A DNA stretch of 64,000 nt, taken from assembly GCF_026571515.1 (NCBI RefSeq), contig NW_026862005.1, positions 186,001 to 250,000 on the forward strand. Direction: 5' to 3'. Position numbers and translations under genes: made by a program. The notes under the pieces are model-generated. The model had not been told where the DNA came from. It ran no database searches and saw only the letters and a program-made list of their open reading frames with translations. The stretch's first letter is position 1. The number at the start of each line of letters is the position of its first letter. Shown in pieces: positions 9,388-51,500 of the stretch. The stretch is from Ruditapes philippinarum. Its lineage: Eukaryota.

Positions 9388-9529
9388 TTAGTTATAAAGA
9401 TTTTTGACAGGTTATATAGCCCTACATTAACGGTTGTTTAGAAATATAACGCGAGGCTCCAGGCGAGGATTATATTGCAAACAACCGTTTATATATGGCC
9501 ATATAAACTGTCAAAATGTTTATAACGAA
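9388..9529 (+). mobile_element. Long imperfect hairpin, likely the end of a non-autonomous (Crypton-like?) element, family 1
   Basis: ~65-bp arms (ttataaagatttttgacagg..aacggttgttt / aaacaaccgtt..ctgtcaaaatgtttataa) with CGAG present in direct orientation on both arms. Confidence 0.55.
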
Positions 9530-9989
9530 TTTAAAAAACAGCAAGGAACTTTTTTTTAGAGAAAATGTCAGATTTCTTCATAAATTACAGCAGCCGTATA
9601 TTTAAAACTTTATTGACGTCACGGTTTTTTAAATGACAATATATATTGTGACCACCTATATAGTTTGTAGGATTTTAAACATAACATATCTACTTTGTGT
9701 GCAGTCATAACATGTTTATGTTATATTAATAAAGTCACTGTGTAGCAATTGCCAAGATTTTTAATAACAAATTTGAGCACAGTATATCTTTTTAATAGCT
9801 ATAATATTAACTTGACAGATGATACAGATCCAAAACCATAGTTTTGTGCATTTTCTTACCCAAATTAGACATATTCACTACTGTACAATTTTAAACAAAT
9901 CCGAAATGAGATATTTTGTACTTTCGGTTTCTACAACCATCATAATAATGTTATAAACTACTTTTATTTCTATAATATTAAAATGATTT

Positions 9990-12285
9990 AAGTGGACTTT
10001 TACTACATATATTGGAATAAACTCAACATCTCCTAGCATTCATTTTCCACTTGTTTGCATGTTTAGTTTCTTAACGTAGGTAAGACCTTTATACATAATT
10101 TGTTTTATGTATTCTTATTCTTGTGTTCGAGGTCCTTATCCAAAGTTTGGCGTAATCTGATCAATGTCTTTCTTATATACATTTTGGACTATAAAATATG
10201 TTGAAAAATCTCACAGGACTGGTTTATTTCCATGCAGCCGATGTTTACATTGGTCAAAGTTAATACACTTTCATACTTAAGTTTTCTGATGCTGCCTCAA
10301 ATCCCCGTCTCAGACAGCACGGCTTCTGTTGTGTTATTGAATCTTCAGAACAAATACTTCCATGAGGCCTATGTTTACATTGTTCAAAGTAAACCACCTT
10401 TATGTTTCATATACCTATTAATGTTTACTAAATTTTCTGTAAAAGCACCGGTTTCTGTTTTGGAATTCAATCATCTTAACAAATGGTTAGGAATAAATAA
10501 ACTCAAACAAACATAATAAGAATATCAATGAAATGTTACGGTGCTAAAAATAGGTTTAGAAATTTTATATAGAGATGAATTTTAGTTTATAATGGAGGAA
10601 AAATCTAATTGTCAGGATAAAACGGCCATTGAATGCAAAGGAAAATAACCCACGAACAATGAATACTTTTGAATCAAACAAATCTTTAAAAACTCACTTT
10701 TTTACACTTAACTAAAAGTAACTTAAAGCAAAACAAGTTTACAAAATGCACTCTTGTATAAACTGTTCTTAATTAACCAAAATATATTATTATAAGAAAT
10801 AATATTGAATTAAAGATTTGAACCCGTCAAACAAGTGCCAAAAATGTAATAATTATCTGAAAGTATGAAAAATAACCTAATTGATTCTGTGCTATTTAAC
10901 AGATAAATCTAAATAGAAGCAAGTCCTGTTTTAAAGTTATACCACCAAGAGCGAAAATCTCATAAATATAGATGACTGTCATTTTTAAAAACAAAGAGAA
11001 AATTATTGAAATAATCTTAATTACTTCGGTAAAAAGAAACAACTTAAATTTCTTACAAATTCATCAAATATTGTTCAGTGAATAAAGATAATCAATGCAA
11101 AAGTGCCTAACATAAATTCTATAGTTCTTTAATAAACATTAGAGAGCTTTTAGAGATGTTACTTCTTTATAAATTAGCAGCAGAATTACAAAAGTCCCTG
11201 AGCTTCCTGGTTAAATGAACTTCTGTACCCAGAGGGAGCTAGCATTTACATAGTGGTGGCACTGTATGTAACAACTCATCTGATTGTTCTGCATATTACA
11301 TGTACTGCTTATCAGAATTTACTCAACAAATGCTTCAGGCTTATATTTTTTACATATATATTCTAATAATAGATTATGACTCATGGAAAAGTTTAAGAAA
11401 CAACATTAACATAACATTTTCTACAAAAGATAACAATAATAGCAAAGTTCTACAAAGTTATTTATAAACACATGCAAATGCTTAATCACCAACTTCTATT
11501 CCACTAAGATTAAAGGCCAGAGTAAATAGAGATAGAACCATTTTCTATATATATTGTACATAATTATATAAAATAATCCTAAGCCATGCTCAGTGTTTCT
11601 AAAAGAATGTATCAATAAGTTCTACAATCAATACTTAGTAAAATAATCAACATTAAACTAGTGAATGATAAGACTGAAATGTCCATAAAACAATACATAT
11701 TCAATATCATTAAGTTTTAAGAATATTTACAAGTGCAAGGCAATCAAAAGGTGTCTTTTGAGTGAATATATATTACGTACTCAAAACATGAAATTGTATT
11801 CTTTATTTAAATATTGTTTCGATCGTCGTTGTGATCACACCATCATGTAAACATTATCAGCAGTGTGTTTAGGACATTTACTGTTTAATAATGTTATCTC
11901 TCTTTGATAATGTGAAAAGAGCCAGTGTCGATCCGTATTACACAAAATTAAAGTTTGCTCGCTTTACACCTTTTCAAGATAACGTTCACTTCACCTTACT
12001 GTATATCGTGACAGAGATTTTATTAGAGTTTTATCCGAAAAGGTCTTATTCTTCTAAATTCAATAATGTTTATATCTCTTTAACTGAATCATCGTGAATT
12101 TTAATTGTTACGTTCTACATGTTCTATATCAAATCGACAAATCATGGATAGAAGAAAATGGCAGTTTAATTTATAACATTTCTTTAACGTAAACAGCGGA
12201 AAGCTTTCCAATCCCGATCACACAAAGACAAATAAATACATTTAAATTCATGATCTACATTCGTTGAACTCGAAGTTTAGCAGTT
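9990..12285 (-). repeat. Shared ~2 kb 3' flank of the paralogs (further copies ~16875-18915, ~30050-33980 interrupted, ~38770-41234)
   Basis: Recurrent blocks such as gatgtttacattggtcaaag, cagcacggcttctgttg, tagcagcagaat..acaaaa, ggtggcactgtatgtaacaac and tttctacaaaagataacaat. Confidence 0.85.
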
Positions 12286-14037
12286 CTAAAAATTAATGAT
12301 ATTGTATACCTTTAGGCGATCAGCACCGTCAAAACTAACGTACAGCTTCGACAACGAAGCAGAATAAAGTAAAGCTTGTGGGCAAAAATCGTCGAACTTC
12401 AACAAAACTTGTTTGTCCGTATTTTTAGTGTCATCGGTATGATAAACATGTATACTACCAGTTCCGGATTCACAGACATAAATGAAGCCATCCTTATCAG
12501 TCGTTATACCTAAAGGATGCCAGATGCGTGGCGAATAAGAATATCCATATGAGAAGTCAATGTCCATTTTATAAATGTTGTCATTTAACCAATCTGTGAC
12601 GTAAAACTGATTTCCCATTATATCAGTATTTAAGTAATAGGGACATTGAAAGGGAGACTCTCCCTTTTCATCTATATCAAATGTGCGAATAACACGTCCA
12701 CTGAAGTCCATTATCTGAAGTTTGCCATGATAATCAGCAGTCATTGCAATTACCAACTTTTCATCACCAATGTACGCAATATCAGCACAATACATTTCTG
12801 TCAATATAAAGCGCTTCATAAAAACGAGTTGTTTAGCATTTGTCAGTTTTAAAAACTGAATTATACTACGGCTCTCGTTCTTTTCGTTCTTTTCATATAA
12901 CTGAACCATAGCAATTCTCGAGTCCGTAATCTTAGTAACACCCTCTGGAGTCCTTTTCAGAGCCAGCCGATCTAATAAATTCTTACTTTTTAAATTGACT
13001 AATTTCAGACAACAATTACTACGATCAGACAAGACAAGATATTGTTCGGACAGTTTACATAAGTCGCATATGCAACAGTCTTCCTCATCACAGATGTCCT
13101 TGACAATTATATCTTCGACAAAGTTCGCTGTCTTTTTTATCCCTTTGCCATGACATTCTTGAGATGTAGCGATGTTTGTTCCAAATTCTTTAACTCTTTT
13201 TAACAAATCATTTGTTTTCTTTCTCGCTTCATCCTTGAAGTCCTTGTCTATTTTTGACGAATCTTGTGTCAAATCTCCCAAGATTTGATTCATTTCAGTC
13301 AAATTTACGCTCAGCTGTTTTATTTTCATAAATAACGTGTACTTACGACTTTTTTGAAGTTGTTTTATTGTTTTAACGTTCTTTGATAATTGATCAGTTT
13401 CTTTTTGCAGCAATTCAAGCCTTTCCTTCGCTTTGTCAATGCTCAAAGTATCACTTTCCTTTTTTGTTTGTATTGTTTCTTCTAGTGTTGAAATTTCCTC
13501 TTCGAACTTCGCAAACATTAATTCCTTCTCCTTTTTAATTACAGTTCTCGTTTCTGCTGTATCAACAAAAATACTTTCATATCTTGTATCAATTTCCCCT
13601 GTGAAATCTGAAAGATGTTTAACAATACCATCCTTGTGTTTCATTAACCCTTTAAGTTCTTCCTCACATTTAGTGTCCGTAACGAAATCGGGGAGATAGC
13701 TCATGTTACACGTATCTTTGTGTAGCTCCGGTTTACAAATACAACAAACAAATTTATTGCAAGTAGTACAAAAATATTTTACAACCTCCTTTGTATGTGT
13801 CTCACATTTTTCCAAGCACAAATCTTGGGGCATTTTATTTCCTTCCAGGGTTTTATGAAAAGGATAAAACTTTCCATGGTATTTCAGACAAGTTGAACAG
13901 AAGTAGGTCACACAAGCAGAACAAAATGCACAGGCTATCTCATGTTGCCCTTCCCTATGACAAGCTTCGCAGTACATGTCAAAAACATCGTCAGAACCTT
14001 TGCTTTCTGCTTCCTGAATTGTTTTTGATTCCGCCAT
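12286..14037 (-). CDS. RING-less TRIM-like B-box/B-box/coiled-coil/NHL-like beta-propeller protein, paralog 2 (583 aa)
   Basis: Intact ORF; two B-boxes, heptad-rich helical middle, NHL-like blades (FQCPYYLNTD..FYVTDW; WHPLGITTDKDGFIYVCE). Confidence 0.92.
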   Translation of the reverse strand: MAESKTIQEAESKGSDDVFDMYCEACHREGQHEIACAFCSACVTYFCSTCLKYHGKFYPFHKTLEGNKMPQDLCLEKCETHTKEVVKYFCTTCNKFVCCICKPELHKDTCNMSYLPDFVTDTKCEEELKGLMKHKDGIVKHLSDFTGEIDTRYESIFVDTAETRTVIKKEKELMFAKFEEEISTLEETIQTKKESDTLSIDKAKERLELLQKETDQLSKNVKTIKQLQKSRKYTLFMKIKQLSVNLTEMNQILGDLTQDSSKIDKDFKDEARKKTNDLLKRVKEFGTNIATSQECHGKGIKKTANFVEDIIVKDICDEEDCCICDLCKLSEQYLVLSDRSNCCLKLVNLKSKNLLDRLALKRTPEGVTKITDSRIAMVQLYEKNEKNESRSIIQFLKLTNAKQLVFMKRFILTEMYCADIAYIGDEKLVIAMTADYHGKLQIMDFSGRVIRTFDIDEKGESPFQCPYYLNTDIMGNQFYVTDWLNDNIYKMDIDFSYGYSYSPRIWHPLGITTDKDGFIYVCESGTGSIHVYHTDDTKNTDKQVLLKFDDFCPQALLYSASLSKLYVSFDGADRLKVYNIINF

Positions 14038-14072
14038 CGTTACCAGGAATTCATGCGTCTTTTTCTAATAAA

Positions 14073-15129
14073 CTAAATTTTAAAGTAAAATACAGGTGAG
14101 CAATAATTGATTAGAATGAGCCAACAAGACACGTAAATATTTCTTGTGGAAAATAAATTAATTTGAAACAAAAGTGGACAGCATTAGAAAATGTAAGATT
14201 TTACTTTAAACCTTTAATTGTTATCAACGTTCATCTGACACTTCACACACTTTAAAAATCGTAAAACATTATATTGATAAATGATGTATCGTTCAACATT
14301 TTACAACTCTAACGCCGACTTAGTCAACACTTGAACAGGAGAGTTTTTCAAAAATGAGAATAGAGGGGGGGGGGGGGGTGGAGGGGCTCTTTTCACTAAT
14401 AGTGCACATATTCCTCTACATTGCTGTTTGTTTTTACCCAATATTAGAGCGATTATCTGAAATTCTACTGAGCACAATTAATCAAAAACACTATACTTTT
14501 TTTCGGATATCCAAGTTTAAGTTTCGAATGTACTGAAGATAGTTTTTCTCGTTTTGGAAATAAACTTTTCCGATCAAGAAAGTAATTCATACAATCTATA
14601 GAGGATGTAGTATAGTACATTCCTTCTTCAGTTTTTGTTTGTTAATTTCAAGGTATGTTTTTGTAGTTAAAAATAAAAAGACAGAAAATCCACGGTGGTT
14701 CACCAAAACGCGAAAGTTGCTATAACAACGTCTTAGGATATAAGAGTAGATTATTAAATGTACTATAATATCGTACATGAATTTACCTTTACTTTAGAAA
14801 TGTAGGTTATGTTGTAAGTATAAGTGAAATTTTAACAATAAAGACCCCTAAAGGAAGAAACCGGTAGAATTTCACGTCGTTGTATTAAGTATTTGACTTA
14901 ATAAATGACACAATTTGCCTGTCTATACGATTAAGATTTTTTGAAAATAGGAGTGATTTTATTGGTCAGCAAATGATGTAGAATACTGATGAATCTTACA
15001 CCATTATAAGAATCCAGCACGGACACATTCATATTTTTTTTTTTTATTTTTAAATTTAAAAAAAAAAAAATTTTTATTATTTAAAAATTTTTTTTATTTT
15101 TTTTTTAAAAAAGCGACAGAATGACGTCA
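14073..15129 (-). promoter_or_regulatory. Candidate promoter and 5'UTR intron of paralog 2
   Basis: On the minus strand: TGACGTCA (15122-15129), CCAAT (14961-14965), donor AG|GTAAAT (GT at 14786-14785) and acceptor tttAG at 14074-14073. The same motifs occur upstream of paralog 4. Confidence 0.4.
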
Positions 15130-15225
15130 TTTAAGATTATTTACCTACTGTTGTATACACTATACAATATAGACTGATACTTAGTTAACTATTAGAATAA
15201 TCATTGAAAAAAATAAAGATATATA

Positions 15226-15403
15226 TACGGTGGCACAAAGGTGACATGTGTGTGTTTTTATTTATCTCGTGCGCACGAGATACTATGTCGTTGCCACGTG
15301 TTACTAAGTCGTTGCCACGACTTAGTAACTCATGGCCTCGACATAGTATCTTGTGGCCACGAGATAAATAAAAATGCACACATGTCACCTTTGTGCCACC
15401 GTA
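15226..15403. mobile_element. MITE with long TIRs and internal 21-bp palindromic units, inserted in a TA run
   Basis: TIR tacggtggcacaaaggtgacatgtgtg / cacacatgtcacctttgtgccaccgta; the empty site is present in the duplicate region at ~37355-37370 (aaagatatttacaatac). Confidence 0.9.
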
Positions 15404-15459
15404 TATATACAATACTTAAAGTGAATAGAATAGCAATATATGATAATCGATACGCTTGA

Positions 15460-16400
15460 AAAACAGCTCCCGTTTTTTCTTGTTATAATTATAATAAAAA
15501 TTGATCTGAACGATTTATCTAGCATGTTAGAGGCTTACATCATGAAAGAGTAGTGCTGAATGTGAAAATAGTTGGCATAAAAGTAGTAAAAATAAAAATA
15601 GAATGAAATTTGACTTCAATATAAAATACTAAATCACTATAACTGTGCTTATTCCCAGAAAGCAACTCAGGCGAAATATGATTCAGTTAATTGGTAAATT
15701 AGTAAGTGTTGGAAAACTATATAAAAAACATCAAATATAAACAACTTTTTAGAAACAAAATACAAACCTTTATTGGTCATGATCCGATTTCAAAACTTCA
15801 TAGACAGGTTTCACCAAAGGCGAACTATGTCTGTACATGTCTACTGATAAGAATATTAAATCGTAACTTGATAAAAGAAATTACCTTTACATGCTGTGAT
15901 ATCTTTCAATGTCGTTCATAACTATTTACACAGGATATGTACATGTCCAAATGTTGAACAGTAAAAACGTTATGTCGTTGAAGAGAACATGTCCGGTGTG
16001 GATCAGTACATTACTGATAAGGCCTTTATCTGATTAAAACCCCACATCATAACTCCGCAAAAATTCAAAGTTTGTATTTAAATTTTCTGTCGGAATTAAA
16101 AAACCATTACTGGGATAAACATAAGTCCAGTCAGTTAAATTTTCACGTGACAGATAATTTAAAAATGCAGTAAATTTATAACGAAACGAAATCAATGACA
16201 TTTCATCTGATAAACTATATCAAAGGGTTTTAAAAGTAACAGCAGTTTTGTAACCGTCTAGTATGATCTTCCCACAATGCACCAGCTATTTACTGTTGCA
16301 ATCGTAACTTCTCGGCTTTCTCCGGCGACTTCGTCGGGGTGTACCGATTGCTTTCGAGAAATGTTAAAGTTTATGGTTTATGATAATGTGATAAATTGTT
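15460..16400. repeat. Paralogous intergenic block (copies ~27090-28150, ~37425-38470, degenerate ~44190-44750)
   Basis: Shared strings cagctcccgtttt, gtagtgctgaatgtgaaa, caggcgaaatatga, cccacaatgcaccagctatt and gtcggggtgtaccgattgct. Confidence 0.85.
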
Positions 16401-16411
16401 ATATAGAAGAT

Positions 16412-16561
16412 ATTTGTTAAGTTCAGTGTAAGATCGAAATATATTTCACCGAGTGAGCACCAAAAGGTATATTTCACGAGTGGCCCAGCCACGAGTGAAA
16501 TATTAACTTTTGGTGTTCACAAGGTGAAATATATTTCGATCTTACACTAAACTAGATAAAT
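16412..16561 (+). mobile_element. Long hairpin of a non-autonomous (Crypton-like?) element, family 2, copy 1
   Basis: Arms agtgtaagatcgaaatatatttcacc / ggtgaaatatatttcgatcttacact; core CACGAGTGGC-cca-GCCACGAGTG; absent from the paralogous block near 28145. Confidence 0.7.
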
Positions 16562-18915
16562 TTTCATTTTTATTATATGCAAAGAAACGTTTTAAAAAGA
16601 TACTAAACCTAATACTGAATGAAAAGCGCGCCAAATAATAATACAACGTGACGTGATTTACACATTATAGGTAAACATAGTGTCATTCAAAAAATTATCT
16701 GGCAGGATCAAATTCCTTGACAGATGATGCAGCTCCAAAAACATAGTAAGTGCTTTTTCTTACTCAAATTAGACATATTCAGTAATGTACAATTTTAAAC
16801 AAATCCGAATAAAGACATTTTGTTTTTTCGGTTTCTACAACCAACTACTTTATATATAAATAATATTATATAATTTAGGCAGACTTTTACTCTATATATT
16901 GGAATAAACCTAGTCAACACAAATATGATAAACAAGATCAACAACGAAAGGCGGCGTTCAATGAACGCAACCCAAATATAATTTTATATCTCTCAGCAAT
17001 CTCTTACTATTTGTTTGCATGTTTAGTTTCTTAGCGGAGATAAGGCCGTAATACAGAATTCGTTCTATGTATTCTTACTATTGTGTTCGAGGTCCTTATT
17101 CAAAGTATGAAGGAAGGGGCCGAAAAGATGCGATTGATACATGCTCAAATACGTCTCATCAATGTCTTTCTTATATTTATGTTTTACTTTAATAATTTAT
17201 TAAAAAAGCTCACAGTACTGTTTTTTCCAGGTATTCCAAGAAGCCGATGTTTACATTGGTCAAAGTTTATACACCTTCATACTCCAGTTTTTTATGGCTC
17301 TGTTCCTCACTGGCTAAGATCACCATCTCAGGCAGCACGGCTTCTGTTGTCAGAACAAACTTCCACGAGGTCTATGTTTACATTCAACCTACATACTTAA
17401 TTTTTTTTTTACCATATGTATTTAACCAAAATATATTTAGAAATAATATTAAATAAAAGATTTAAATCCGTTGAAACCAAGTGTCAAACAATCATCTGGA
17501 AGTATGAAAAATAATCTTAAATTCCATGCAGCAAGCCATGTTTCAAAGTTTTACTAACAAGTATGAAAATCTAACAGTAATAGATGGCTGCCACTTTTAA
17601 AAACAAAGAAAAGATATTAATCGATCTTAATTACCCCGGTACAAAGAAATTACTAAAATTACTTACAAATTTATCAAAAAATGGTTCAGTGAATTTACAT
17701 AATCTTTAAGTTTAATTTAATGGCAAAGTGCCTAAAATAAATTCTTTAAATGATTAATAAACATTAGATGTTGCTTCTTTATAAATTAGCAGCAGAATAA
17801 CAAAACTCTCGAGATGACTGGTTAAATGAACTTCTGCATCCGTGAGGGTGCTAGCATTTACATACAGGTGGCACTGTATGTAACAACACATCTGATTGGT
17901 CTGAAAATTTCTGCTTACATGAATTTACCTAACAAATGCTTTAGGCTTATAATTTCTTTGCATAACTATTCTAATAATATATTGTGATTCATGGAAAAGA
18001 TTTAAAAAAAACATTAACATTTTCTACAAAAGATAACAATAACAAAGTTCTACAAAGTTATTAAAAGAATAAAAATACCACTAAGAAACTAAATATATTT
18101 ATAAACATATGCGAATGCTTAATCAACAACTTATATTCCACTCAGTTTAAAGGCCAGAGTATGTGGAAGTAGAACCATTTTCTATATATATATTATACAT
18201 TACTATATAAAATAATCTTAAGCCATGGTAAGCGTCTCTAAAAGAATGTTCTAAAAGTTCTACAAGGTTGCTTAATATAGTCAAACTTAGTAAAATAATC
18301 AACATAAAATAGTAAATGATAAGAATGAAATATCCATAAAACAATACATATTCACTATCATTAATTTTTTTAGAATATTTACAAGTTTTAGTCAATCAAA
18401 AAGGTGACTTTTGAATGAATATGTATTACGCACTCAAAACATAAAGTTGTATTCTTTAAATGTTGTTTCGATCATCGTTGTGATCACGTGCACACCCTCA
18501 TGTAAATATTATCAGCAGTGTGTTAAGGACAGTAACTGTTTAATAATGTTATCTCCCTTTGATTCTGTGAAAAGAGCCAGTGTCGATCCGTATTTCACAT
18601 ACGTTTGCCCGCGTTATACCTTTTCAAGATAACTATCACTTAACCTACTGTATATGATGACATAGATTTCATAGGTGGTTTTATCCGCATAGGTCTTATT
18701 CTTAAAATAATGTGTTTATCTCTTTAATTGAATCATCACCAATTTCATCTGTTACGTTCTATATCAAATCGACACATCATGGGTAGAACAAACTGGCAGT
18801 TTAAACATTTCTTTAACGTAGACAGCGGATAACTTTCTCATCCTCGATGACACAAAGTCAAATAAATATATGTAAATTCATGATCAACATTCGTCGAACT
18901 CGAAGTTTAGCAGTT

Positions 18916-22446: not shown

Positions 22447-22479
22447 TTGTTGTTGTTGTTGTTGTTGTAGTTGTTGTTG
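22447..22479. repeat. (TTG)n microsatellite
   Basis: About 11 imperfect TTG units. Confidence 0.85.
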
Positions 22480-26935: not shown

Positions 26936-28251
26936 ATACTCAGGCATTTATAGAGGATGTAGTACAGTACATTCTCTCTTCAGTTTGTTTTTTTGTTAAT
27001 TCCAAGGTATGTTTTTGTATGTATGTATTCTCATACACTAAACAAATATTCTGACACTTAAGTTTATACTTTTAGAATATCATCTGCTTGAAATACAGCT
27101 CCCGTTTTTGTCTTGTTATAATTTAAATAAAAAATGATCTGAGCGATGTTAAACGGCAACTTAATTCCTCTTTGTTCTTCTGATGCGAAATAAAAATGCT
27201 TCTTTATAAAAGACAAACATGTGTTAATCATCTTTAAATAGTGGTTTGTCTAGCATGTTAGAGGCTTACATCATGAAAAAGTAGTGCTGAATGTGAAATT
27301 AGTTGGCATAAAAGTAGCCAAAACAAAACAAAGTACAATTTGACTTCAATACAAAATACTAAAACAGTATAACTGTACTTATTCCTAGAAAGTAACTCAG
27401 GCGAAATATGACTCAGTTAATTGGTAAATAAGTAAGTGTTTCAGTGTTTGAAAACTATAACAAAACATCAAATATAAACAAATTTTGAGAAATAAAACAA
27501 AAACCTTTATGGAACATTATAGGTCTTTAGAAACTTCCTAGTAAGGTTTCACCAATAGCGAACTATGTTTGTAGATGTCAACTGATAAGAATATTAAATC
27601 GTATCTTGTTTATAAATAAAATTACCTTTATATGTTGTTTCTATGTCGTTCATAACTATTTACACAGGATATATACATGTCTATATGTTGAACAGTAATA
27701 ACGTTATGTCATTGAAAAGAACATGTCCAGTGTGGATGAGTACATTACATATAAGGCCTCCGTCTGATTAAAATCCCACATCCTAACTCCGCAAAACATC
27801 CAAAGTCTGTATTTAATTTTCTGTCAGAATTCAAACCATACTTGGATGAACATAAATCCAATCAGTTAAATTTTCACGGGACAGATAATAAAAATGAGTA
27901 AATAACGATACGAAATCAATGCCATTTCACCTAATAACAATACCAAATAGAGAATCTTAAAATGGTTTAAAAGTAACAGCTGTTTAACCATATCTAACTC
28001 TTTCTGTTATAATTTTCCCACAATGCACCAGCTATTACTGTTGCAATCGTAACTTCTCGGCTTTCTCCGACGACTTTGTCGGGGTGTACCGATTGCTATC
28101 GCGAAATGATAATGATAATGATGATTTATGATAACGTGATAAAGTGTTATCAAAAGAATAAATGAATATAAAACGTTTACAATGAATTTAACCACAATCC
28201 AACTGGAAAGGTAGATAAGACTTGATATACTTTTTTCATTGTGGAATGTAA

Positions 28252-37266: not shown

Positions 37267-38478
37267 TTTAAGATTATTTACCAAGTACTGATGTATACAC
37301 TATACAATATAGACTGATACTTAGTTAACTATTAGAATAATCATTGACAAAATAAAGATATTTACAATACTATAAGTGAATAGAACAGCAATATATGATA
37401 ATCGATAGTTGATATAGTATCCGCTTGAAAAACAGCTCCCGTTTTTTCTTGTTAAAATTATAATAAAAATTGATCTGAGCGATGTTCAACGGCAACTTAA
37501 AAGATTTGTCCTTTTGATGCGAAAACCAAAAAAAAAATGCTTCTTTAAAAAAGACAAACATGAGTTAATCATCTTTAAATAGTGGTTTATCTAGCATGTT
37601 TGAGGCTTTGATCATGAAAAAGTAGTGCTGAATGTGAAAGTATTTGTCATAAAATTTAGCCAAAATACAAAGTAAAATTTGACTTCGATACAAAATTCTA
37701 AATCAGTATAACTGTGCTTATTTCCAGAAAGCAAATCAGGCGAAATATGATTCAGTTAATTGGTAAATAAGTAAGTGTTTCAGTGTTTGAAACCTATAAC
37801 AGAATATCAAATATAAACAATTGTTTGTGAAATAAAATAAAAACCTTTATGGGGCATAACGGGCCTTTACAAACTTCCTAGTCAGGTTTAACCAATAGCG
37901 AACTATGTGTATACATGTCTACTGATAAGAATATTAAATCTTATCTTGATAATAAAACAAATTACCTTTACATGCTGTTATCTTTCTATGTCGTTCATCG
38001 CTATTTACACAGGATATGTGCATGTCTATATGTTGAACAGTAAAAACGTTATGTCGTTGAAGAGAACATGTCCGGTGTGGATCAGTACATTACTGATAAG
38101 GCCTTTATCTGATTAAAATCCCACATCCTAACTCCGCAAAACATTCAAAGTCTGTATTTAATTTTCTGTCGGAATTAAAACCATACTGGGATGAACATAA
38201 GTCCAATCAGTTAAATTTTCACGTGACAGATAATAAAAATGAGTAAATTTATAACGAAACGAAATCAATGACATTTCATCTGATAACTATATCAAAGGGT
38301 TAAAAGTAACAGCAGTTGTAACCGTCTAGTATGATCTTCCCACAATGCACCAGCTATTACTGTTGCAATCGTAACTTCTCGGCTTTCTCCGGCGACTTCG
38401 TCGGGGTGTACCGATTGCTTTCGAGAAATGTTAAAGTTTATGGTTTATGATAATGTGATAAATTGTTATATAGAAGAT

Positions 38479-38628
38479 ATTTGTTTAGTTCAGTGTAAGA
38501 TCGAAATATATTTCAAGGAGTGAGCACCAAACGGTATATTTCACGAGTGGCGCAGCCACGAGTGAACTATGAACTTTCGGTGTTCACAAGGTGAAATATA
38601 TGTCGATCTTACACTAAACTAGTTAAAT
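38479..38628 (+). mobile_element. Long hairpin, family 2, copy 2
   Basis: Paralog of 16412-16561; core CACGAGTGGC-gca-GCCACGAGTG. Confidence 0.7.
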
Positions 38629-41234
38629 TTCATTTTTATTATATGCAAAAAAACGTTTTAAAAAGATATTAAATCTAATACTGAATGAAAAGCGCGCCAA
38701 ATAATAATACAACGTGACGTCATTTACTCACTATAGGTAAACACAGAATGAATACATATATATATAATTTAGGCAGACTTTTACTCTATATATTGGAATA
38801 AACCTAGTCAACAAAAAATATGATAAACAAGATCAACAACGAAAGGCTGCGTTCAATGAACGCAACCCCAATATAATTTTATATCTCCCAGTAATCACTT
38901 ACTATTTGTTTGCATGTTTAGTTTCTTAGCGGATGTAAGACCGTAATACAAAATTCGTTCTATGTATTCGAGGTCAAAATCTGTAGTTTGACGGAAGGGG
39001 CCGAAAAGATGCGATTGATACATGCTCAAATACGTCTCATCAATTTCTTTCTTATATTTATGTTTGACTTTAATAATTTATTAACAAAGCTCACAGTACT
39101 GGTATTTCCAGGTATTTCCATGCAGCCGATGTTTACATTGGTCAAAGGTATTACACCTTCATACTCGAGTTTTCTTATGGATCTGTTCCTCATTGGCCAA
39201 GATACCCGTCTCAGGCAGCACGGCTTCTGTTGTGTTATTGAATCATCAGAACAAACTTCCACGAGGTCTATGTTTACTATCAACCTACATACTTTTTTTT
39301 GAGGCAGCACCAGCTTTTGATTTGTAATTCAATCATCAAAACAAATGTATAGGAATAAATAAACTCAAAGAAACACAATAAGAATAGCAATAAACTGTTA
39401 TGGTGTTAAAATAGTAAGTGTTTCTACAAGTAGGTTTAGAGGCACCCACTTTCTTGTTATGTAATGTTCTTTAATAGTTTGCTCAGGAGTAGTGATTAAG
39501 ATGATCTTATATTGGAGGTAAAAGCTAATCGCCAAGGTAATACCACCTTTTGAATGCAAAGGGAAATAAAACACAAATACTGAATAAGTTTCAATCAAAA
39601 AAATATATTATGAACTAACTTTTTATTTACAGTTAACAAAAAGTTACTTAAAGGTAACAGTTTTACAATATGCACTCTAGTATTAACTGTTCTTATCTAA
39701 TCTAAATATATCAAACAATGATTTTGAATTAGGGATTTGAAACCGTTAAAAAGAAGTGTCATTATGTAAAAATTATCTGAAAGTATGAAAAATAACCTTA
39801 ATGATTCTGTGCTATTTAACTGACAAATAAAGAGTAGCAACCCCTGTTTCAAAGTTGTACCACCAAGAATGAAAACCTAATATTTATAAATGGCCAAAAT
39901 TTTTAAAAAACAAAGAAAAAAATTAATTGATCTTAATTACTTCGGAAATAAAAGAAATTACTAAAATTACTTACAAATTTATCAAAAATGTTTCGAGGAA
40001 TTAAGATAATTTCTAAGGTTTACTTAATACCAAAGTGCCTAAAATAAATTCTATAATTAGTTAGTAAACTTTAGAGAGCTTTAAGAGATGTAATTCTTTA
40101 AAAAATAGCAGCAGAAAAACAAAACTCCCTGAGATGTCTGGTTTAATAAAATTTTGTGTCCTAGAGGGGGGCTATCATTTACATACAGGTGGCACTGTGT
40201 GTAGCAACTCATCTGATTGGTCTGCAATTTACTGCTTATCAGAATTTACTTAATAAATGCTTTAGGATTATAATTTCTTTGCATAACTATTCTTATAATA
40301 TATTGTGATTCATGGAAAAGTTTAAGAAAAAAACATTAACATTTTCTACAAAAGATAACAATAATAACAAAGTTCTACAAAGTAATTAAAAGAATCAAAA
40401 TACCACTTAGAAACTAATGATATTTATAAACATATGCGGATGCTTAATCAACAAATTCTATTCCACTAAGTTTAAAGGCCAGAGTAAGAGGACGTAGAAC
40501 CAATTTCTATATAAATTGTGCATAACTATATAAAAGAATCTTAAGCCAAGTGTCTCTAAAAGAATTATCACTAAGTTCTACAAGGTTGCTTAATACGATT
40601 AAACGAGTAAAAAAAATCAACATTAAACTCTTTGAATGATAAGAATGAAATGTCCATAAAACAATACATGTATTCAATATCACTAAGTTTTTGTAGAATA
40701 TTTACAAGTTTAAGTCAATCAAAAAGTGACTTTTGAGTGAATATGTATTACGTACTCAAAACATAAAATTGTATTCTTTAAATGTTGTTTCGATCATCGT
40801 TGCGATCACACCCTCATGTAAACATTATCAGCATTGTGTTGAGGACAGTTCCTTTTTTTTTAATAATGCTATCTCCCTTTGATTCTGTGAAACGAGCCTG
40901 TGTCGATCTGTATTACACAAAAGTTTGCCGCTTTATACCTTTTCAGTATAACGTTCTTGTCACCCACTGTATATCATGACAAAGATTTTATTGGAGATTT
41001 ATCCGAATAGGTCTTATTCATCAAATAATGGTTATATCTCTTTAATTGAATCACCGTGAATTTCAACTGTTATGTTCTATATCAAATCGACACATCATGT
41101 GTAGATCCAACCGGCAATTTTAACATTTCTTTAACTTAGAACGGCGGATAGCTTTCTCATCCCCGATCACACAAAGTCAAATAAATACATGTTAATTCAT
41201 GATCTACATTCGTCGAACTCGAAGTTTAGCAGTT

Positions 41235-43816: not shown

Positions 43817-43867
43817 TGACGTCATAAAATATGCAACTTATTCATAAAAGGCGTCAGAATGACGTCA
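43817..43867. promoter_or_regulatory. Two full CRE palindromes upstream of paralog 5
   Basis: TGACGTCA at 43817-43824 and 43860-43867; the second lies in the same cagaATGACGTCATt context as upstream of paralogs 2 and 4. Confidence 0.4.
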
Positions 43868-44980: not shown

Positions 44981-45480
44981 AACAAGATATGTGAAATATG
45001 TATGATAACGAAGATTACAGTTGACAATGGAATTTAATTAGAGTTTGAATGGTGAACATTTGTGCCAACCAAGCAATTCTAAAATATCGTGCAAAAATGA
45101 CAAAATTTAGGGACGGACGCAAATGATATTTATATTTAGACCTGACGTGTACGTAGCATCGCCTTAATTATACGGATCTAGGTCTTAATGAGTCTTTCAC
45201 TAGATCTCACATAGGTTAACATAAGTGCCAGGTGATTACAAAATCCATCAAAGAATTAGTTAAGGACCGGACCATGCATTTATTATATTTTACTTCTGTA
45301 TATGGCCTTTAGCTTTATGCTATTGCCTGCGATGTACCGATCTATTTGACAAGTAGATAAATGGACGCAAAAAGAAGAGTTTCTATATCACCTGCCTTTA
45401 TGTTTTCGAACTTCCTTCAATTTAAAGCTTCCGGGTTAGATATTGTGCGCGACACACCGTGTCATGATGAAGAACATGTG
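44981..45480 (+). mobile_element. Degenerate Helentron/HINE-like element with ~160-bp satellite-like units
   Basis: Begins aacaag; recurring tgaacatttgtgcca / taacataagtgcca / gacacaccgtgtcatgatgaagaacatgtg motifs resemble, from recall, bivalve HINE-associated repeats. Confidence 0.4.
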
Positions 45481-46209
45481 GAAATAGTGTGAGTTTTCTG
45501 TATTTTTTTCCTGCTCACGAATCCCCCCTTTACATACATTCATTCATGGTCCGTAGTGGCCTGACATTAATTATGTATTTCCTATAAAATATTTATAATA
45601 AGAATAAATACAAATGTGACAGAATCACTTGGAACAATATTGAAAGTAGCCATGAATAACATGTTGATCTGTTTATATAGATTTAACCATAAAATGAAGT
45701 ATACTAGAGCAAAAATAAGGTAGATATGCTAGACAACGTAAACAAGAAAGGTACACTATTTTAGATACGTTTACATCATGTTTATCGTTTACATGCAGTT
45801 TTATTTCATTTTCTAAAACGAATTTTTATTCCATCATCGTTTTTTTTTGGTTACATTTACTAATCATTTATAAAAACCTGTCAAGGAATCTGAAACACTT
45901 TGAGTTTTGTCAACTTAGCCGCATTCCGTATTGGTCACTTATAAGGGTTACTTGATTGGAGAGGTCATGTCTAGGAATCTTACGTATGACCTCTCCACGG
46001 AGTTTAGAATGAATGCTCGCGGCACTTTGAGAATAAATTGAAATTAATAATCTCATTAAAACCTAAAATCATAAGAACCGGTCAATAAAAAACAAAACAA
46101 AACATAATATCGTTATATGCATGCAAACTTAGCATCGAGGTGAACAAATCGATAAATGGAAAAATCGGATAATATCATTTACGTTAGATCTAACATTTAG
46201 AACTCAATT

Positions 46210-46883
46210 AAAGCGTATAAATTGATACATGTGTCTTCTAAGTTTAATAAGGGTTTATCCGTCCTTTCAGGCACTGAGAGGTAAAACCCCGGACACGTCA
46301 CCAAGCATGTCCTTAAATAGTATTAAATTGTATTGCCAAAAGGTGACCTATTAATTTTGATTCCAGTAATTCACTGATTGCGACTTAATATGTGTTGTTG
46401 TTTTTTCTATTCGATGTATAATACACATGACTAAGTGATGCAAGGGAGTCCAATGACACCATTAATTGCATCAAGCTAAAATGTAAAATGTTGATGAAGT
46501 TACCAAAATAATAAGCTAAGTATACCCGACTCTGTAAGTTCATATCGGACTATCATGTCAGATTTTTTTTATAAAGAAACTATATACAAGTACAACTAAA
46601 CTTTTTTTTATTTAACATGCATAAGTAGGAACCATGCGTTTCCTGAATGAAAACAAACAAACAAAACAAAACTATTTAGTGAACCGTGCTCCGAAATTGT
46701 GCTGCTCCGTTAACTTAGGAACACCATGCCGATTATTCCTAATTGGAACTTATCCAAAGGAAATAGCCATAAATTTATTCTGCCTATTCATTAAACATAC
46801 GTACTAAACAAATATTCCACAACTGCAAAACGACCACTCGCATATTTTTTTTAAAAAAAGTAGGATATCAATGTTTTGGCAAT
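46210..46883. repeat. ~670-bp segment duplicated in inverted orientation at 54170-54886
   Basis: For example cctttcaggcactgagagg, tattgccaaaaggtgacctattaattttgatt and aatattccacaactgcaaaacgaccactcgcata all appear reverse-complemented. Confidence 0.9.
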
Positions 46884-47280
46884 TGAACAATTGTACACTT
46901 GGCATATTTATAAGTTTGATAATTTATTTATTATATTTTATTTTACAAAACTTTCGTGGTCAACTGTAAAGTCAACTTTAACTGTATTCTCTTAATCCTC
47001 AATAAATTACCCATTGACAGCTACTAGTATTTGACGAGTGTTCATTTCAATTTACAGTCAACAATGCAAGACAAAATGACAAAAACATTCTGCTGTATAT
47101 ATTTTATACACAATGTAATTGACAATACTGAATACTGTACCGGAAACACATCGACTGTTTTTCTAAAGGCTTCTAAAGTGATTTCAATCTTAAATCATGT
47201 TTTCAATAAATCAAGCGTAATTGTCACTTCTTATAAGATATCAAAGCTATTATGTGTTAGATTTAAACGTAAGTTATCAT

Positions 47281-47355
47281 GTTAGGCAAATCGATCGCCG
47301 AGATATGACAAAAATGCCTTTAAATCGGCGTAAAATTCAAAACAAGCAAACCAAC
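47281..47355 (+). mobile_element. Degenerate mollusc-type SINE 3' tail
   Basis: gttagg..cgccgagatatgac..cggcgtaaaattcaaaacaagcaaaccaac: stem (cgccga/tcggcg) plus AAAC-type tail. Confidence 0.45.
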
Positions 47356-47661
47356 AGGAAATGTTTTCATTCAACTTTTTTTTTATTTCAATTTAAGAGA
47401 TAAGTATTCATGTCTGATAACAGTCTCTTTAAATATAAAAAATATTGAACTTCAACCCGACAATGAAACTGCAAAAATATTTTTTATACTAGGAACTCTT
47501 TTTCTTGTTATTTTCATTCATACATGCGAATTTTAAAGTGAATAATTCACCAATATTTCTATCCATTATTCTTACGTTTCTATGTTGTGTGTTGGATACC
47601 TATTACATATTTAACATGGAATTACCATCGACACTTTGATAAATTTCATTCAACCACACTA

Positions 47662-49731
47662 TCATGTAATTTTAAACACTTTGATTGCATCATAACCTGT
47701 CTGGCCAACGTACAACTTCTTCTCGGCTGAGCTGAAGCAAATGCCAGATGGATTCCAATAGTTTGGACGTGTTTGCAATAACGCAACCTTCTCGGATTCG
47801 TCACGGTGTGGATGAAAGTAGACTATTTTCCCAGAACCAGCTTCAATGATGTACAAAAATCCCTCATCATCAATTGTTATACCTTCTGGGTGCCACATAT
47901 AGGCCACTGGTCTGGTTTTATAACTTCGGAGATCAATTTCAATTACCTTGTCTCTATACCAGTCACTAACATATGCATACGTTTCATTGTCGTTTACCGT
48001 TATACAGTATGGATTTTTGAATATGTCTTCTTCATCACTGTCTGTTTCAATATTAACCAATACATCACCATCCATATCAATAATTTGAACTTTTCCTTCA
48101 TTGTCCTGACACATTGAAATTATGAATCTGTCATATTTCAGGTAAACAGCAGTATAACAAGTCATTTCTGTAGTTATGTATCGCTTTTGGAATTTCAGTT
48201 TATGGAACTTCGTTAAAGTTAAAAACTGTATCTTACTGGTACACATATAACTGCCTCGGACAAAGGCAATTTGATGATCATCTATTTTTGTAACAGTTTC
48301 TGGTGCAAAGTCAACAGACCTTACGTGAACGATTTGATTAAGTTTTACATCAAATAACTTGAGCGAACAATTACTCTTATCACACAGGACAAGGAATTGT
48401 TCAGACAACAAACAGCAGTCAATTATGTTGCATTTTTCCTCATCTGTATCGGCTTCCACGTTTATATCATCCAAAGCACATGCTTTCTTTCTTTGTTTTG
48501 CCTCGGCTTCCTTTGTTACTATTAGTGGAATACTCTGTCGCAACAAAGTTCCAAAGTCTCCAACTTCTTTAGATATTCTTTTAACTTTGTCTTCTAAATC
48601 TGATTCAGGACTACAGATACTTATTTTTTCAATCCAATCTTCTGCTTTCTTAATTGTACATTTAAGCTGTTCTAATTCTATGAACACCTGATATTTTTTG
48701 TGGCCAGGAATTGATGCTAGCGTTTTGATACTTAATGACAGCTTATCGATTTTTAGAGTCAACGATTCATTTGTTTCTTTCAGAGAATCAACAATCGTGC
48801 AATCATGATTCTTGATCATCTGGATCATAGATTCAATATCCTCAGCTTGTTTGTCAAACTCTTCAAAACCACTATCCTTTTCTCGCTTAATTACACTATG
48901 TGTTTCTGAAGAAATTTTGTTCAAATGATCAAGTTTTGTAGCAACAGCTTCTTCTGTGTCTGAAACTCTGTTTCTAAATGTTTTATGATGTGAGTGTACC
49001 GATTCAAATTCTTTTTCAAAATCTTGACCTTTCAGTAAGTCGGGTAAATATTGTAGACTGCATGAATCTGTATGCAAATCTTCTTTACAAATTGTACAAA
49101 CAAAGTCTCCACACGTATCACAATGAAACTTTACTATCTCGTTGGTATGGGTTTTACATTTTTCAGAACATAAATCCAAATACATGTCGTCTCCGATTAT
49201 ATACTTATGCTTTCGCAAAAATTTCCCGTGGTGTTTAAGGCATGCTGAGCAAAAGTACGCCACGCAAGAAGTGCAGAAAGCATACGCCGACGCGTGTATT
49301 CCGTCTCTCATGCAAACTTCACAAAACATTTCAAAGATTTCATCCGAACCATTTGTTCTACTATTTCCTTCTGGCTGTGTTAAACTTTCAACTGGTTGTG
49401 TCGAACTTTCACATGGCTTTGTCGTACTTTCTGCCGACTGTTTCAAACTTCCATCTGTCTTTGTCGAACTGTCAACTGGCTGAATAAGACATACAACTGG
49501 TTGTATCGAACTTTTAACTGGCTGTGTCGAACCTTCTATTGGCTGAGTCGAACTTTCATCTAGCTGTATCAAACCTTCATCTGGCTTTGTCGAACCTTCA
49601 ATTTGCTGTGTCGAGCTTTCAGTTGCCTTTATCGAACTTTCAACTGACTGTTTAGAACTTATAATGTTTTTATTCATACCATCAATTTTATGACGATTCT
49701 CACAATCTAAGTAACTTTTACGCTCAGCCAT
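47662..49731 (-). CDS. RING-less TRIM-like B-box/coiled-coil/NHL-like propeller protein, paralog 6, with an N-terminal S/T/Q/P-rich repeat extension (689 aa)
   Basis: Intact ORF; same domains; divergent subfamily (YVSDWYR, MWHPEGITIDDEG). Confidence 0.92.
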   Translation of the reverse strand: MAERKSYLDCENRHKIDGMNKNIISSKQSVESSIKATESSTQQIEGSTKPDEGLIQLDESSTQPIEGSTQPVKSSIQPVVCLIQPVDSSTKTDGSLKQSAESTTKPCESSTQPVESLTQPEGNSRTNGSDEIFEMFCEVCMRDGIHASAYAFCTSCVAYFCSACLKHHGKFLRKHKYIIGDDMYLDLCSEKCKTHTNEIVKFHCDTCGDFVCTICKEDLHTDSCSLQYLPDLLKGQDFEKEFESVHSHHKTFRNRVSDTEEAVATKLDHLNKISSETHSVIKREKDSGFEEFDKQAEDIESMIQMIKNHDCTIVDSLKETNESLTLKIDKLSLSIKTLASIPGHKKYQVFIELEQLKCTIKKAEDWIEKISICSPESDLEDKVKRISKEVGDFGTLLRQSIPLIVTKEAEAKQRKKACALDDINVEADTDEEKCNIIDCCLLSEQFLVLCDKSNCSLKLFDVKLNQIVHVRSVDFAPETVTKIDDHQIAFVRGSYMCTSKIQFLTLTKFHKLKFQKRYITTEMTCYTAVYLKYDRFIISMCQDNEGKVQIIDMDGDVLVNIETDSDEEDIFKNPYCITVNDNETYAYVSDWYRDKVIEIDLRSYKTRPVAYMWHPEGITIDDEGFLYIIEAGSGKIVYFHPHRDESEKVALLQTRPNYWNPSGICFSSAEKKLYVGQTGYDAIKVFKIT
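49366..49659 (-). repeat. Coding minisatellite, 14 x 21 bp (7-aa consensus SSTQPVE)
   Basis: SSKQSVE SSIKATE SSTQQIE GSTKPDE GLIQLDE SSTQPIE GSTQPVK ... SSTQPVE SLTQPEG; DNA unit ~tgtcgaactttcaactggttg. Confidence 0.9.
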
Positions 49732-50590
49732 GTTTGTTAACGCGCATACTACAAAAAAGTTGATGAGATGAACAGCTTAAAAACAGTAAAAACTAATCTC
49801 TACAGAACATGACGTGCCATAAAGTATCCTTAAAGAAAAAAGAATACAAAATCTCAACTTCAAAATTTGTTTTCACAAAGCCAGCATAAACATGCGACTT
49901 ATAAAGCATTTTATTTAAAGAATTTAAAGATCGTTCTATATCCATTCGCATTCATTGAATTTTTAGCTTGTAACTACTTGTTCAAAAGCGGATCAGCAAT
50001 TTGTAATATGATATTTCCCCATAATGCATTAGCTCGTTCAATATAGATCACTAAAATTGAACGTGAACGTGAATGTAATTAAGTAGGCTAAGGCGAATTA
50101 AATTGAAATTATGGTAAGCATACACGAGTAGTGTTTCTTAAGGTGGGATATGTGATAACTGTAAATTTGAACAGTTCCTTATTTAGATTCATTATTTATG
50201 TATAAAGGATAATTTCAAAAATTCTTTTTTTTACCTTTGTTATTTTTTTTCTTCTTTTTGAGAATGATGTATACAAAAAAGAACATGTCCTTTTTCAATT
50301 GAAACTGATATATGTTCAAACATTAATAAATAAAAATGATCAAATAATAAAATGTATCATGAAAATTGATTTTACAAATAAAGAGCAGAAATTATAAATA
50401 TCATCATAATTGCAATGCAGTTCTTTAGCTTTCAATGTTCAATTTAAAGGAAACTTAGTATAATTTTTTGAATTACATAACTTTTCAATTCTTCGCACTC
50501 AGTCAAGGTTTGAATAATATTTAATGTGCCATGAACGCTCTTTTATAGCAGTTAAACAATTTTTGTAGATACGCCATCAGGATTATAGTT

Positions 50591-51101
50591 CTTTGAAGTT
50601 ACGCAGTCATTAATGCCATACACTTTTATCAAATTCAGACCGTACTGGCTGATGTATAACTAAAACAATAGCAAACAGCCAAAAGCTGTCAATAAACGGA
50701 AACGTCTGCCAGAAAAAAAACATCTGTTGATGAATTGTCATCTTCATGATGGAAAACGTGAATGCGGTTTGTACCGCATTCGCAGATGTAAATGAGTCCT
50801 TTCTTGTCAGTCGTTATTCCTTATGGTCAGGTAATTTGGACATTTTTCAGGTTTTTAACAGGTCGCCATTTGCGTTGATCTATATATCTGCCAGTACGTG
50901 ACCTGTCATGTCTAAAACTTGCACTTTACCTTGATGGTTAGCCCACATAGAAATTATGAAAGTGTCGTTATCTAGGTAAGCAATATCAGTACAATACATT
51001 TGTGTTATCATAAATCCTGTTTGGAACTCAAGAGATCTTGAGTCTGTCATTGTCAAAAATTAAATTATACTTTTCTCTTTGTCGTTGTCGTAAGGACGAA
51101 C
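50591..51101 (-). pseudogene. 3' (propeller) fragment of a paralog-8-like gene
   Basis: High identity to 58566-59190 (atctgccagtacgtgacctgtcat, gcactttaccttgatggttagcccacatagaaattatgaaagtgtcg); ~110-bp internal deletion, small indels and a CAA>TAA change; not in the ORF track. Confidence 0.9.
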
Positions 51102-51112
51102 ACGTGTAACTT

Positions 51113-51500
51113 GTAATAGAAAGAGCATCGAAACACGAGGCTATCTGATTTTTACGAGGGGGCCCAGTCCCCGAGTATTAATCGGATTGCCGAGTGTTTT
51201 GATGTTCTTTCTCTTTTGTATCATAGTCAAACATAAAAACACGTTCCCTGTTGTCACAATATGAAATCTCGGGGAAAAGAACCAATGAACGAGCATCTGA
51301 ATATGACATTTCTGTCGCTTTCCCTTTCTCTTCCGTCACAATAAGTAAACCTCAGCAAAAATGAGCCAAGCAATGGGCATGCTCTGGATTGCAGGTAACT
51401 AATAGTCCTGCAGTCCAGTTAACGCACTGTGCATGTATATGTATACGATTTAACTCTGACACATTTGCATCAGAAAGGTCCCCAAACTATGATACAAATA
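51113..51500 (+). mobile_element. Non-autonomous element with a terminal long hairpin and a short asymmetric inverted repeat (Crypton-like?), family 3
   Basis: Hairpin 51118-51212 with two CGAG/CGAG mismatch pairs; tttgtatcatagt (~51215-51227) is inverted at actatgatacaaa (51486-51498); sits at the truncation point of the pseudogene fragment. Confidence 0.65.

What the first reader, a model, noticed from the sequence alone, without database searches (positions are those of the whole stretch)
9388..51500. Three unrelated long-hairpin families share strand-specific tandem G.A mismatches (CGAG/CGAG) and short loops, suggesting folded-ssDNA recombination sites
Seen: hairpins at 9388-9529, 16412-16561/38479-38628 and 51118-51212 have different arm sequences. 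In each, CGAG occurs in direct rather than inverted orientation at paired positions, giving C-G, G.A, A.G, G-C when folded; the 38.5-kb copy is capped by a c-GCA-g triloop. Established: tandem sheared G.A pairs in a PyGAPu context and cGNAg triloops are very stable in DNA, while the opposite strand would carry C.T mismatches. Tyrosine recombinases (integron IntI/attC, XerCD/CTX attP) and HUH transposases select one folded strand through such asymmetries. Inference: these are ends of non-autonomous elements, reminiscent of Crypton-type tyrosine-recombinase transposons, mobilised via a strand-specific ssDNA hairpin. One marks the truncation point of a pseudogene.
Basis: partly seen in the sequence, partly recalled or inferred. 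Interest (0 to 1): 0.7.

Follow-up and report, generated by a model that had tools for sequence, protein, structure and literature searches.

The report
Mismatch-studded hairpin ends of Crypton transposons
The hairpins are the left ends of short, gene-less copies of Crypton jumping genes whose full-length relatives carry a cut-and-rejoin recombinase, and their shared design suggests that these elements likely jump as one folded DNA strand, a route shown in bacteria but not for Cryptons.

Summary
Confirmed and extended. The hairpins are the 5' ends of three high-copy short elements (E1 about 283 bp, E2 441 bp, E3 384 bp) in a 1.4-Gb animal genome; a fourth family lies at 61355. Each of the three has a longer relative with matching ends that encodes a DUF3504 tyrosine recombinase (CryptonA type). 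The tandem G.A pairs are the family consensus, not decay: 1297 exact E2 matches carry GA, 25 the paired form. In all 12 elements aligned, the joined 3' and 5' ends pair with an internal mirror copy, leaving a 1-2 base bulge at the joint. E2 inserts without target duplication into a weak inverted site with a 6-8 base spacer and keeps fixed first bases. The recombinase gene lies on either strand, by clade, while the hairpin always opens the GA strand. Inferred, untested: one strand is excised, folds into its own recombination site and inserts by one strand exchange, like CTX phage attP. No intermediate was seen. The papers searched describe no such ends and call Crypton's mechanism undemonstrated; Repbase and Dfam could not be searched. 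The scan noted this design before in other genomes.

The parts
9386..9626 (+). E1 copy: non-autonomous Crypton element, about 85% identical to a family copy, last ~35 bases lost or decayed; hairpin 9388-9529 followed by the segment complementary to the family's 3' end
16403..16661 (+). E2 copy a: 5' 260 bases of the 441-bp element, 3' part missing; hairpin 16412-16561
38470..38727 (+). E2 copy b: same insertion, duplicated with its flanks (93.6% over 884 bases); hairpin 38479-38628 with GCA triloop
51113..51497 (+). E3 copy, complete (385 bp); hairpin 51118-51212 with two tandem G.A pairs; its last 12 bases are complementary to the segment right after the hairpin
61355..61806 (+).
50597..51101 (-). 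3' fragment of a B-box/NHL gene; its first 391 codons and about 3.7 kb of the paralogous stretch are missing where E3 sits
27544..28150 (+). paralogue of the left flank of both E2 copies that lacks E2; homology ends exactly at the E2 start

Best explanation
These are short non-autonomous CryptonA-type DNA transposons whose 5' hairpin, tandem G.A pairs and internal mirror copy of the joined ends likely let one strand fold into its own recombination site, which the tyrosine recombinase of the full-length relatives would then excise and insert by a single strand exchange. Shown: element ends, copy families, recombinase-coding relatives with matching ends, conserved GA/GA on one strand, complementarity of the end-to-end junction to an internal segment with a 1-2 base bulge, no target duplication, a weak inverted target site. 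Inferred: when the GA strand is single-stranded (for example at a replication fork) the 5' end pairs with the right arm and the 3' end with the adjoining segment, so both ends sit side by side on one splint; one exchange would join them into a single-stranded circle and leave the other strand, and so a copy, behind; the folded junction would attack a double-stranded target at the left edge of its spacer, and replication or repair would finish the insertion. The sheared G.A pairs and G-N-A mini-loops would mark or stabilise the strand that folds; they lie 20-80 bases from the crossover and are probably not the crossover themselves.
For: Partners: E1 ends bound a 5.93-kb element in two copies 92.8% alike (5' end 97.6% and 94.5%, 3' end 86% and 85% to E1), one with an open 401-residue DUF3504 frame holding the R, HxxR, H and Y motifs; E2 ends bound a 3165-bp element (82%), E3 ends a 2754-bp element (84% and 93%). 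Motif: a scan blind to loop content found GA/GA or its reverse complement in 28 of 39 hits in 90 recombinase loci; outside the tip, 14 of 22 two-base mismatches in 16 families are GA/GA, 2 more differ by one base, none is TC/TC; single mismatches are G.T 24 to A.C 6 on the same strand (three redundant rows dropped). 1297 against 25 exact matches for the GA and the paired form; 10 of the 25 looked at are arm conversions or deletions, none a full flip. Junction pairs with the internal copy in 12 of 12 elements aligned, although their sequences differ. Gene orientation relative to the GA strand splits by clade (one change, 16 labelled rows), so the fold is not an mRNA feature; the sense-strand E3 partner keeps a GT-AG intron. 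Target: four nested insertions restore the empty site exactly with no duplication (L004, L013/L014, L026, L102; read); right-flank T at +8 in 25 of 34 (p 5e-6) and at +11 in 22 of 34 (p 4e-4) in an independent sample. The first seven bases are fixed in 35 of 36 scorable copies of 40 although the right-hand spacer is free, which a two-strand excision would scramble.
Against: No circle, single strand or activity was observed; the contigs laid cannot show one. Computed energies favour the GA strand in 13 of 16 families, by at most 6 kcal/mol, and the other strand in E1, J and K; both strands fold. Two loop types (TCT, CTTG) are not G-N-A loops. Only 25 of 90 recombinase loci gave a hit with the strict detector, and families G and H showed no such hairpin at their shared boundaries. 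The blind longest-match test for the internal copy missed the true end in several families and was not clear of its AT-rich control; the result rests on ends fixed by copy boundaries. The E2 and E3 partners are only 81-84% alike at the 5' end, and the E2 partner is broken, so the true mobiliser may be a sister. No partner with both ends was found for E4. The clade split has weak support (60/93). Families are kin, so the counts are not independent.
Confidence: 0.62

Rival explanations
1. Splint-and-prime model, as in DIRS: the internal mirror copy only aligns the two ends of an excised strand for joining, the G.A hairpin is a priming signal for the second strand, and a double-stranded circle then integrates.
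For: DIRS-1 has an internal region complementary to both ends that is essential for transposition, and makes single-stranded intermediates (PMC7192593, passages). Mini-hairpins occur at priming signals of single-stranded phage and plasmid DNA (PMC13037366, section 4). It explains the fixed first bases equally well.
Against: The DIRS region is described as an exact complement; here a 1-2 base bulge is kept right at the joint in 12 of 12 elements, as expected for the unpaired spacer of a folded site. A double-stranded circle would need a second exchange across a non-matching spacer; no 4-6 base repeat flanks the copies.
Confidence: 0.2
2. Classical Crypton model: a double-stranded circle is excised and integrated; the palindrome is an array of protein-binding sites or extrudes as a cruciform, and CGAG is a directional binding word rather than a mismatch.
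For: This is the model in print (PMC13565253, passage). A supercoiled circle can extrude both hairpins. Folding energies differ little between strands.
Against: It does not explain why CGAG words always fall in pairing register, why G.T outnumbers A.C on one strand, why the ends have an internal mirror copy, or why the first bases stay fixed without terminal direct repeats.
Confidence: 0.12
3. The fold works in RNA, and the elements move through a transcript copied by a borrowed reverse transcriptase.
For: Tandem G.A and G.U pairs are also stable in RNA (own knowledge); DIRS reverse transcriptase acts in trans.
Against: The GA strand is antisense to the gene in one clade and sense in the other; a sense-clade element keeps its intron; G-N-A triloops are a DNA motif (PMC13037366, abstract); no poly(A) tail or 5'-truncation pattern at the ends.
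Confidence: 0.04
4. Ordinary MITEs of a DDE transposase or Helitron-type elements, with decayed palindromes.
For: None beyond small size and high copy number. DDE and HUH genes were not searched for in the genome.
Against: No terminal inverted repeats in the usual sense, no target duplication, mismatches fixed in the consensus, ends shared with recombinase-coding elements.
Confidence: 0.02

Closest known systems
CryptonA DNA transposons of animals and their non-autonomous derivatives (Kojima and Jurka 2011, PMC3212892: abstract, Background, Results parts 1-2 of 3 and supplement 1 read; Glomhopper paper PMC13465315: abstract and passages)
   Same: Single tyrosine recombinase with DUF3504, no C-terminal GCR1_C domain, 2-6 kb, far more short copies than full ones, no target duplication, molluscan and cnidarian relatives.
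   Different: The 2011 paper found no terminal repeats in animal Cryptons, and the 2026 paper has no mention of hairpin, stem or circle. Here there is a long 5' hairpin with fixed G.A pairs, an internal mirror of the junction and a bipartite target. That paper links human Eulor5/6 to Crypton (PMC5753468, passages); that Eulor repeats are hairpin-like is recalled, not checked.
CTX phage attP(+) with XerC/D (PMC3442271, passages)
   Same: Two inverted copies of a site fold in one strand into a recombination site with an unpaired spacer; one strand exchange; replication thought to finish; tandem copies arise.
   Different: CTX borrows host XerCD, targets one dif site and has a rolling-circle protein; these elements carry their own recombinase, use a weak AT-rich target and encode no replication protein.
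Integron attC sites with IntI (PMC2727003, abstract only)
   Same: Structure rather than sequence is conserved; one strand appears favoured; unpaired central spacer.
   Different: attC strand choice rests on extrahelical bases, not tandem G.A pairs; attC is a self-contained palindrome, whereas here the site would be built from the joined ends plus an internal copy.
DIRS-1 retrotransposons (PMC7192593, passages)
   Same: Tyrosine recombinase, an internal region complementary to the two joined ends, insertion into their own kind.
   Different: DIRS encode reverse transcriptase and have inverted terminal repeats; none is seen here, and an intron is kept.
IS200/IS605 family (PMC13565253, passage)
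   Same: Strand-specific end hairpins, single-stranded circle, no target duplication.
   Different: HUH enzyme, small hairpins at both ends, single-stranded target.

Membership tests
CryptonA | Autonomous form encodes one tyrosine recombinase with DUF3504 | tested here: met
   Pfam PF12012 over its cut-off in the E1 partner and in two other families; E2 and E3 partner loci came from the PF12012 search
CryptonA | Catalytic R-H-R-Y residues kept | tested here: met
   Present in the E1 partner P0001; the E3 partner has K at the second R position, with R next to it; the E2 partner is frameshifted
CryptonA | No GCR1_C, reverse transcriptase or DDE domain | tested here: met
   Only DUF3504, Phage_integrase, QRICH1 and a weak DUF3435 match in three proteins scanned; the non-coding 4.7 kb of the E1 partner was not scanned for further genes
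CryptonA | No target-site duplication | tested here: met
   Longest flank repeat 0-3 bases in 25, 23 and 19 copies; four nested insertions restore exact empty sites
CryptonA | Short copies share both termini with an autonomous element | tested here: met
   E1, E2, E3; not found for E4
CryptonA | Placement in the CryptonA clade against named Repbase references | not testable with these tools
   No reference sequences at hand; nearest named relatives are labelled KCTD1_15, KIAA1958-like or Tyr recombinase in molluscs and cnidarians
CryptonF / CryptonS | 4-6 base terminal direct repeats | tested here: not met
   feature from supplement 1
DIRS | Reverse transcriptase, inverted terminal repeats | tested here: not met
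   2.2-3.2 kb elements hold only the recombinase frame; intron kept
Folded single-strand recombination sites (attC, CTX attP) | Site formed by folding one strand, with unpaired spacer | tested here: inconclusive
   Complementarity and bulge present in 12 of 12 elements; folding in the cell not shown
Folded single-strand recombination sites (attC, CTX attP) | Only one strand recombines, by one exchange | not testable with these tools
   Indirect only: fixed first bases, free right spacer, strand-biased mismatches
MITE of a DDE transposase | Terminal inverted repeats and fixed-length target duplication | tested here: not met

The most novel reading that the evidence does not exclude
Animal Cryptons transpose by a copy-out route not yet described in eukaryotes: their own tyrosine recombinase peels off one strand, which folds its joined ends onto an internal mirror copy to build a CTX/attC-like site, selects that strand through sheared G.A pairs, and inserts it by one strand exchange into almost any AT-rich site.
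Probability: 0.5. Interest if true: 0.85.

Novelty: new variant of a known kind. Interest (0 to 1): 0.62.

Why it matters
A 2026 review states that Crypton transposition has not been demonstrated and assumes a double-stranded circle (PMC13565253). The end design found here gives defined substrates, a predicted crossover point, a target consensus and an intact 401-residue enzyme, so the question becomes directly testable. If true, folded single-strand recombination, known from integrons and CTX phage, would extend to animal chromosomes; it would explain how a recombinase element reaches thousands of copies without target homology, give a simple signature for annotating many unclassified repeats, and bear on what the Crypton-derived human genes (ZMYM, KCTD1, QRICH1) once bound.

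Tried and rejected
Blind search for the internal mirror by longest exact match: confounded by AT-rich chance matches, control maxima of 10-18 bases; replaced by alignment at copy-defined ends, where the E4 end motif was not found, so E4 is judged from its consensus only. Flip-flop isomers as in parvovirus termini: rejected, 0 full flips in 10 of 25 loci. Head-to-tail junctions as proof of rolling-circle concatemers: 45 exact junctions exist, but in 10 examined the neighbours are mostly different copies or families (85-89% in four, no match in two, about 97% in three, one short overlap), which fits insertion at an existing 3' end. Folding energies did not separate the strands well. No structure of the recombinase was predicted, so whether it has a hairpin-reading insertion like integron integrases is open. 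One paper search returned nothing.

Full report
Setting. The window is G000:C10492:186001-250000 of a 1.41-Gb, AT-rich animal genome; some public runs that hold part of it are labelled mollusc metagenome and the nearest named protein relatives are molluscan. It holds a tandem array of intronless B-box/NHL genes on the minus strand.

Observation. The 38.5-kb copy has the GCA triloop; the other three tips are decayed relative to their families. Computed energies for plus and minus strand are -33.9/-33.6, -53.7/-52.2, -36.8/-38.0 and -27.1/-19.2 kcal/mol, so the energy model alone does not show strand choice.

The hairpins are element ends. Genome searches gave 488, 1916 and 384 first-look candidates for the three queries, 40 scored each. 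Aligning 30 copies per family gave a sharp left boundary at the hairpin base and a sharp right boundary: E1 about 283 bp, E2 441 bp, E3 384 bp. In the window E3 is complete (51113-51497); E1 and both E2 copies lack their 3' ends. Contigs of four public studies show loose ends at 51112-51113 and the depth step at both E3 ends. A fourth family, E4, lies at about 61355-61806 (873 candidates).

The mismatches are the consensus. GA is near-invariant at the paired positions. A 33-base right-arm pattern has 1297 exact matches in the GA form and 25 in the form that pairs perfectly with the left arm; 10 of the 25 were read, and all are one-off arm conversions or deletions, none a full flip. So perfect palindromes arise but do not spread. 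In 40 E2 copies taken in contig order from the first 100 listed, the left-arm GA is kept in 39 and the GCA loop in 38 (these copies were chosen by an exact right arm).

Autonomous partners. The genome has at least 149 DUF3504 matches; 90 loci were fetched. A scan for any two-base internal loop next to a hairpin tip gave 39 hits, 19 GA/GA and 9 TC/TC (the same motif on the other strand), in 25 of the 90 loci. E1's ends bound a 5.93-kb element present twice at 92.8% identity; one copy has an open 401-residue frame with DUF3504 and the R, HxxR, H and Y motifs, the other has stops. E2's ends bound a broken 3165-bp element at 82%, and three more loci have E2-like ends further apart. E3's ends bound a 2754-bp element whose frame is split by a GT-AG intron. 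Relatives of the E1 enzyme at 43-60% identity occur in bivalves, a snail and a hydrozoan. By the criteria of Kojima and Jurka 2011 this is CryptonA type; placement against named references could not be tested. Two families (G, H) showed no such hairpin at their shared boundaries, and family D had a truncated, inverted arm in one copy.

A second pairing. Directly after each hairpin lies a 12-24 base segment complementary to the element's very 3' end. Joining the 3' end to the 5' start gives a string that pairs continuously with the right arm plus that segment, with a 1-2 base excess at the joint, in 12 of 12 elements aligned (13 tried, the E4 motif was not found in the copy used; E4's consensus shows the pairing by eye). 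The sequences differ among families, so pairing rather than sequence is kept, though kin are not independent. A blind version of this test was not clean; the claim rests on ends fixed by copy boundaries.

Strand signals. In 16 families (19 rows, three redundant dropped) the two-base mismatches outside the tip are GA/GA in 14 of 22, GA/AA or AA/GA in 2, other in 6, TC/TC in none; the tip itself was chosen by motif and is not counted. Single mismatches are G.T 24 and A.C 6 on that strand; energies favour it in 13 of 16, by small margins. In a tree of 30 recombinases the 11 with the hairpin downstream on the antisense strand and the 5 with it upstream on the sense strand are separated by one change (shuffled mean 4.4; support 60/93). 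The hairpin thus always opens the GA strand, whichever way the gene points, which argues for a role in DNA and against an mRNA structure. CGAG blocks of G:C and sheared G:A pairs and G-N-A or G-N-N-A mini-hairpins are stable DNA structures (PMC10085684 and PMC13037366, abstracts).

Targets. There is no target duplication (0-3 bases), and four nested insertions into known sequence restore the empty site exactly. E2 targets read A-W-K-A-Y, then A and six free bases, then T-A-A-T: A at -5 in 35 of 40, A at -2 in 38 of 40, A at +1 in 33 of 34, T at +8 in 25 of 34 and T at +11 in 22 of 34, whereas +9 is not significant (the pattern was first seen in another 25 copies). E3 shows a like pattern. Two weak inverted half-sites around 6-8 bases with the insertion at the spacer's left edge match the geometry of Cre and Xer sites (own knowledge). 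The element's own 3' end resembles the left half, which explains 45 exact head-to-tail junctions, mostly between unlike copies. The spacer after the 3' end is free while the first seven bases of the element are fixed (35 of 36 scorable). A two-strand excision would make a heteroduplex spacer and pass target bases to about half of new copies; their absence suggests that only the GA strand is handed on (inference).

Mechanism. Most likely the GA strand, once single, folds so that both ends lie side by side on the internal copy; the recombinase joins them into a single-stranded circle, whose folded junction exchanges one strand with a duplex target, and replication completes the insertion, as for CTX attP(+) (PMC3442271, passages) and attC (PMC2727003, abstract). 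All these steps are inferred. The main rival uses the internal copy only as a splint, as the DIRS internal complementary region does (PMC7192593, passages), with a double-stranded circle integrating.

The pseudogene. E3 starts 11 bases after the break of a gene fragment, and the sequence after E3 matches DNA about 3.7 kb further along the paralogous unit. E3 marks a deletion; whether it caused it is not shown. Both E2 copies likewise begin where homology to a third paralogue stops.

Novelty. Animal Cryptons were reported without terminal repeats; a 2026 CryptonA paper has no mention of hairpin, stem or circle; a 2026 review says the mechanism is undemonstrated and assumes a double-stranded circle. 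CryptonA elements are polymorphic in oysters (bioRxiv 10.64898/2026.02.10.705023, passages; its supplements are closed). Searches showed no paper describing this end design; Repbase Reports, Dfam and most subscription papers were not searchable and may note the palindromes. PMC9004415 and PMC8869645 were seen as passages only and add nothing on ends. The scan's earlier notes report the same design in coral and other genomes (made after my reading was stated); they are unchecked and not counted as support. Verdict: a known transposon kind with an apparently undescribed end architecture that makes its mechanism testable; interest 0.62.

Noticed in passing
window 6076-60362, minus strand: Tandem array of at least seven intact intronless B-box/NHL genes plus broken copies, 36-38% identical to the last one, spaced about 6-7 kb.
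   Followed up: partly
window 15220-15409 and 53629-54216: A 93-base-arm palindrome and a related element with a 21-base satellite core; similar termini, no GA/GA tandem, so probably another kind of element; the second lies within the broken gene at 52627-56287.
   Followed up: no
window 46288-46849 and 54204-54812: Inverted pair of repeats, 89-96% complementary, 7-8 kb apart.
   Followed up: no
L004, L026, L041, L102: Crypton elements of different families insert into or next to each other's hairpins and ends.
   Followed up: partly
L236, L237 (G000:C2263:278912-282482): A 547-bp E2-related family in a head-to-tail run of units 97.8% alike, the best candidate for a concatemer.
   Followed up: partly
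L191:7528-7760: A family-D copy whose hairpin arm is inverted and truncated relative to the copy in L192/L108.
   Followed up: no
L100, L101: Multi-exon DUF3504 gene without the catalytic motifs, probably the host ZMYM/WOC gene (label recalled, not tested).
   Followed up: no
window 49371-49706: A 21-base tandem repeat encodes an N-terminal repeat in the 704-residue paralogue.
   Followed up: no
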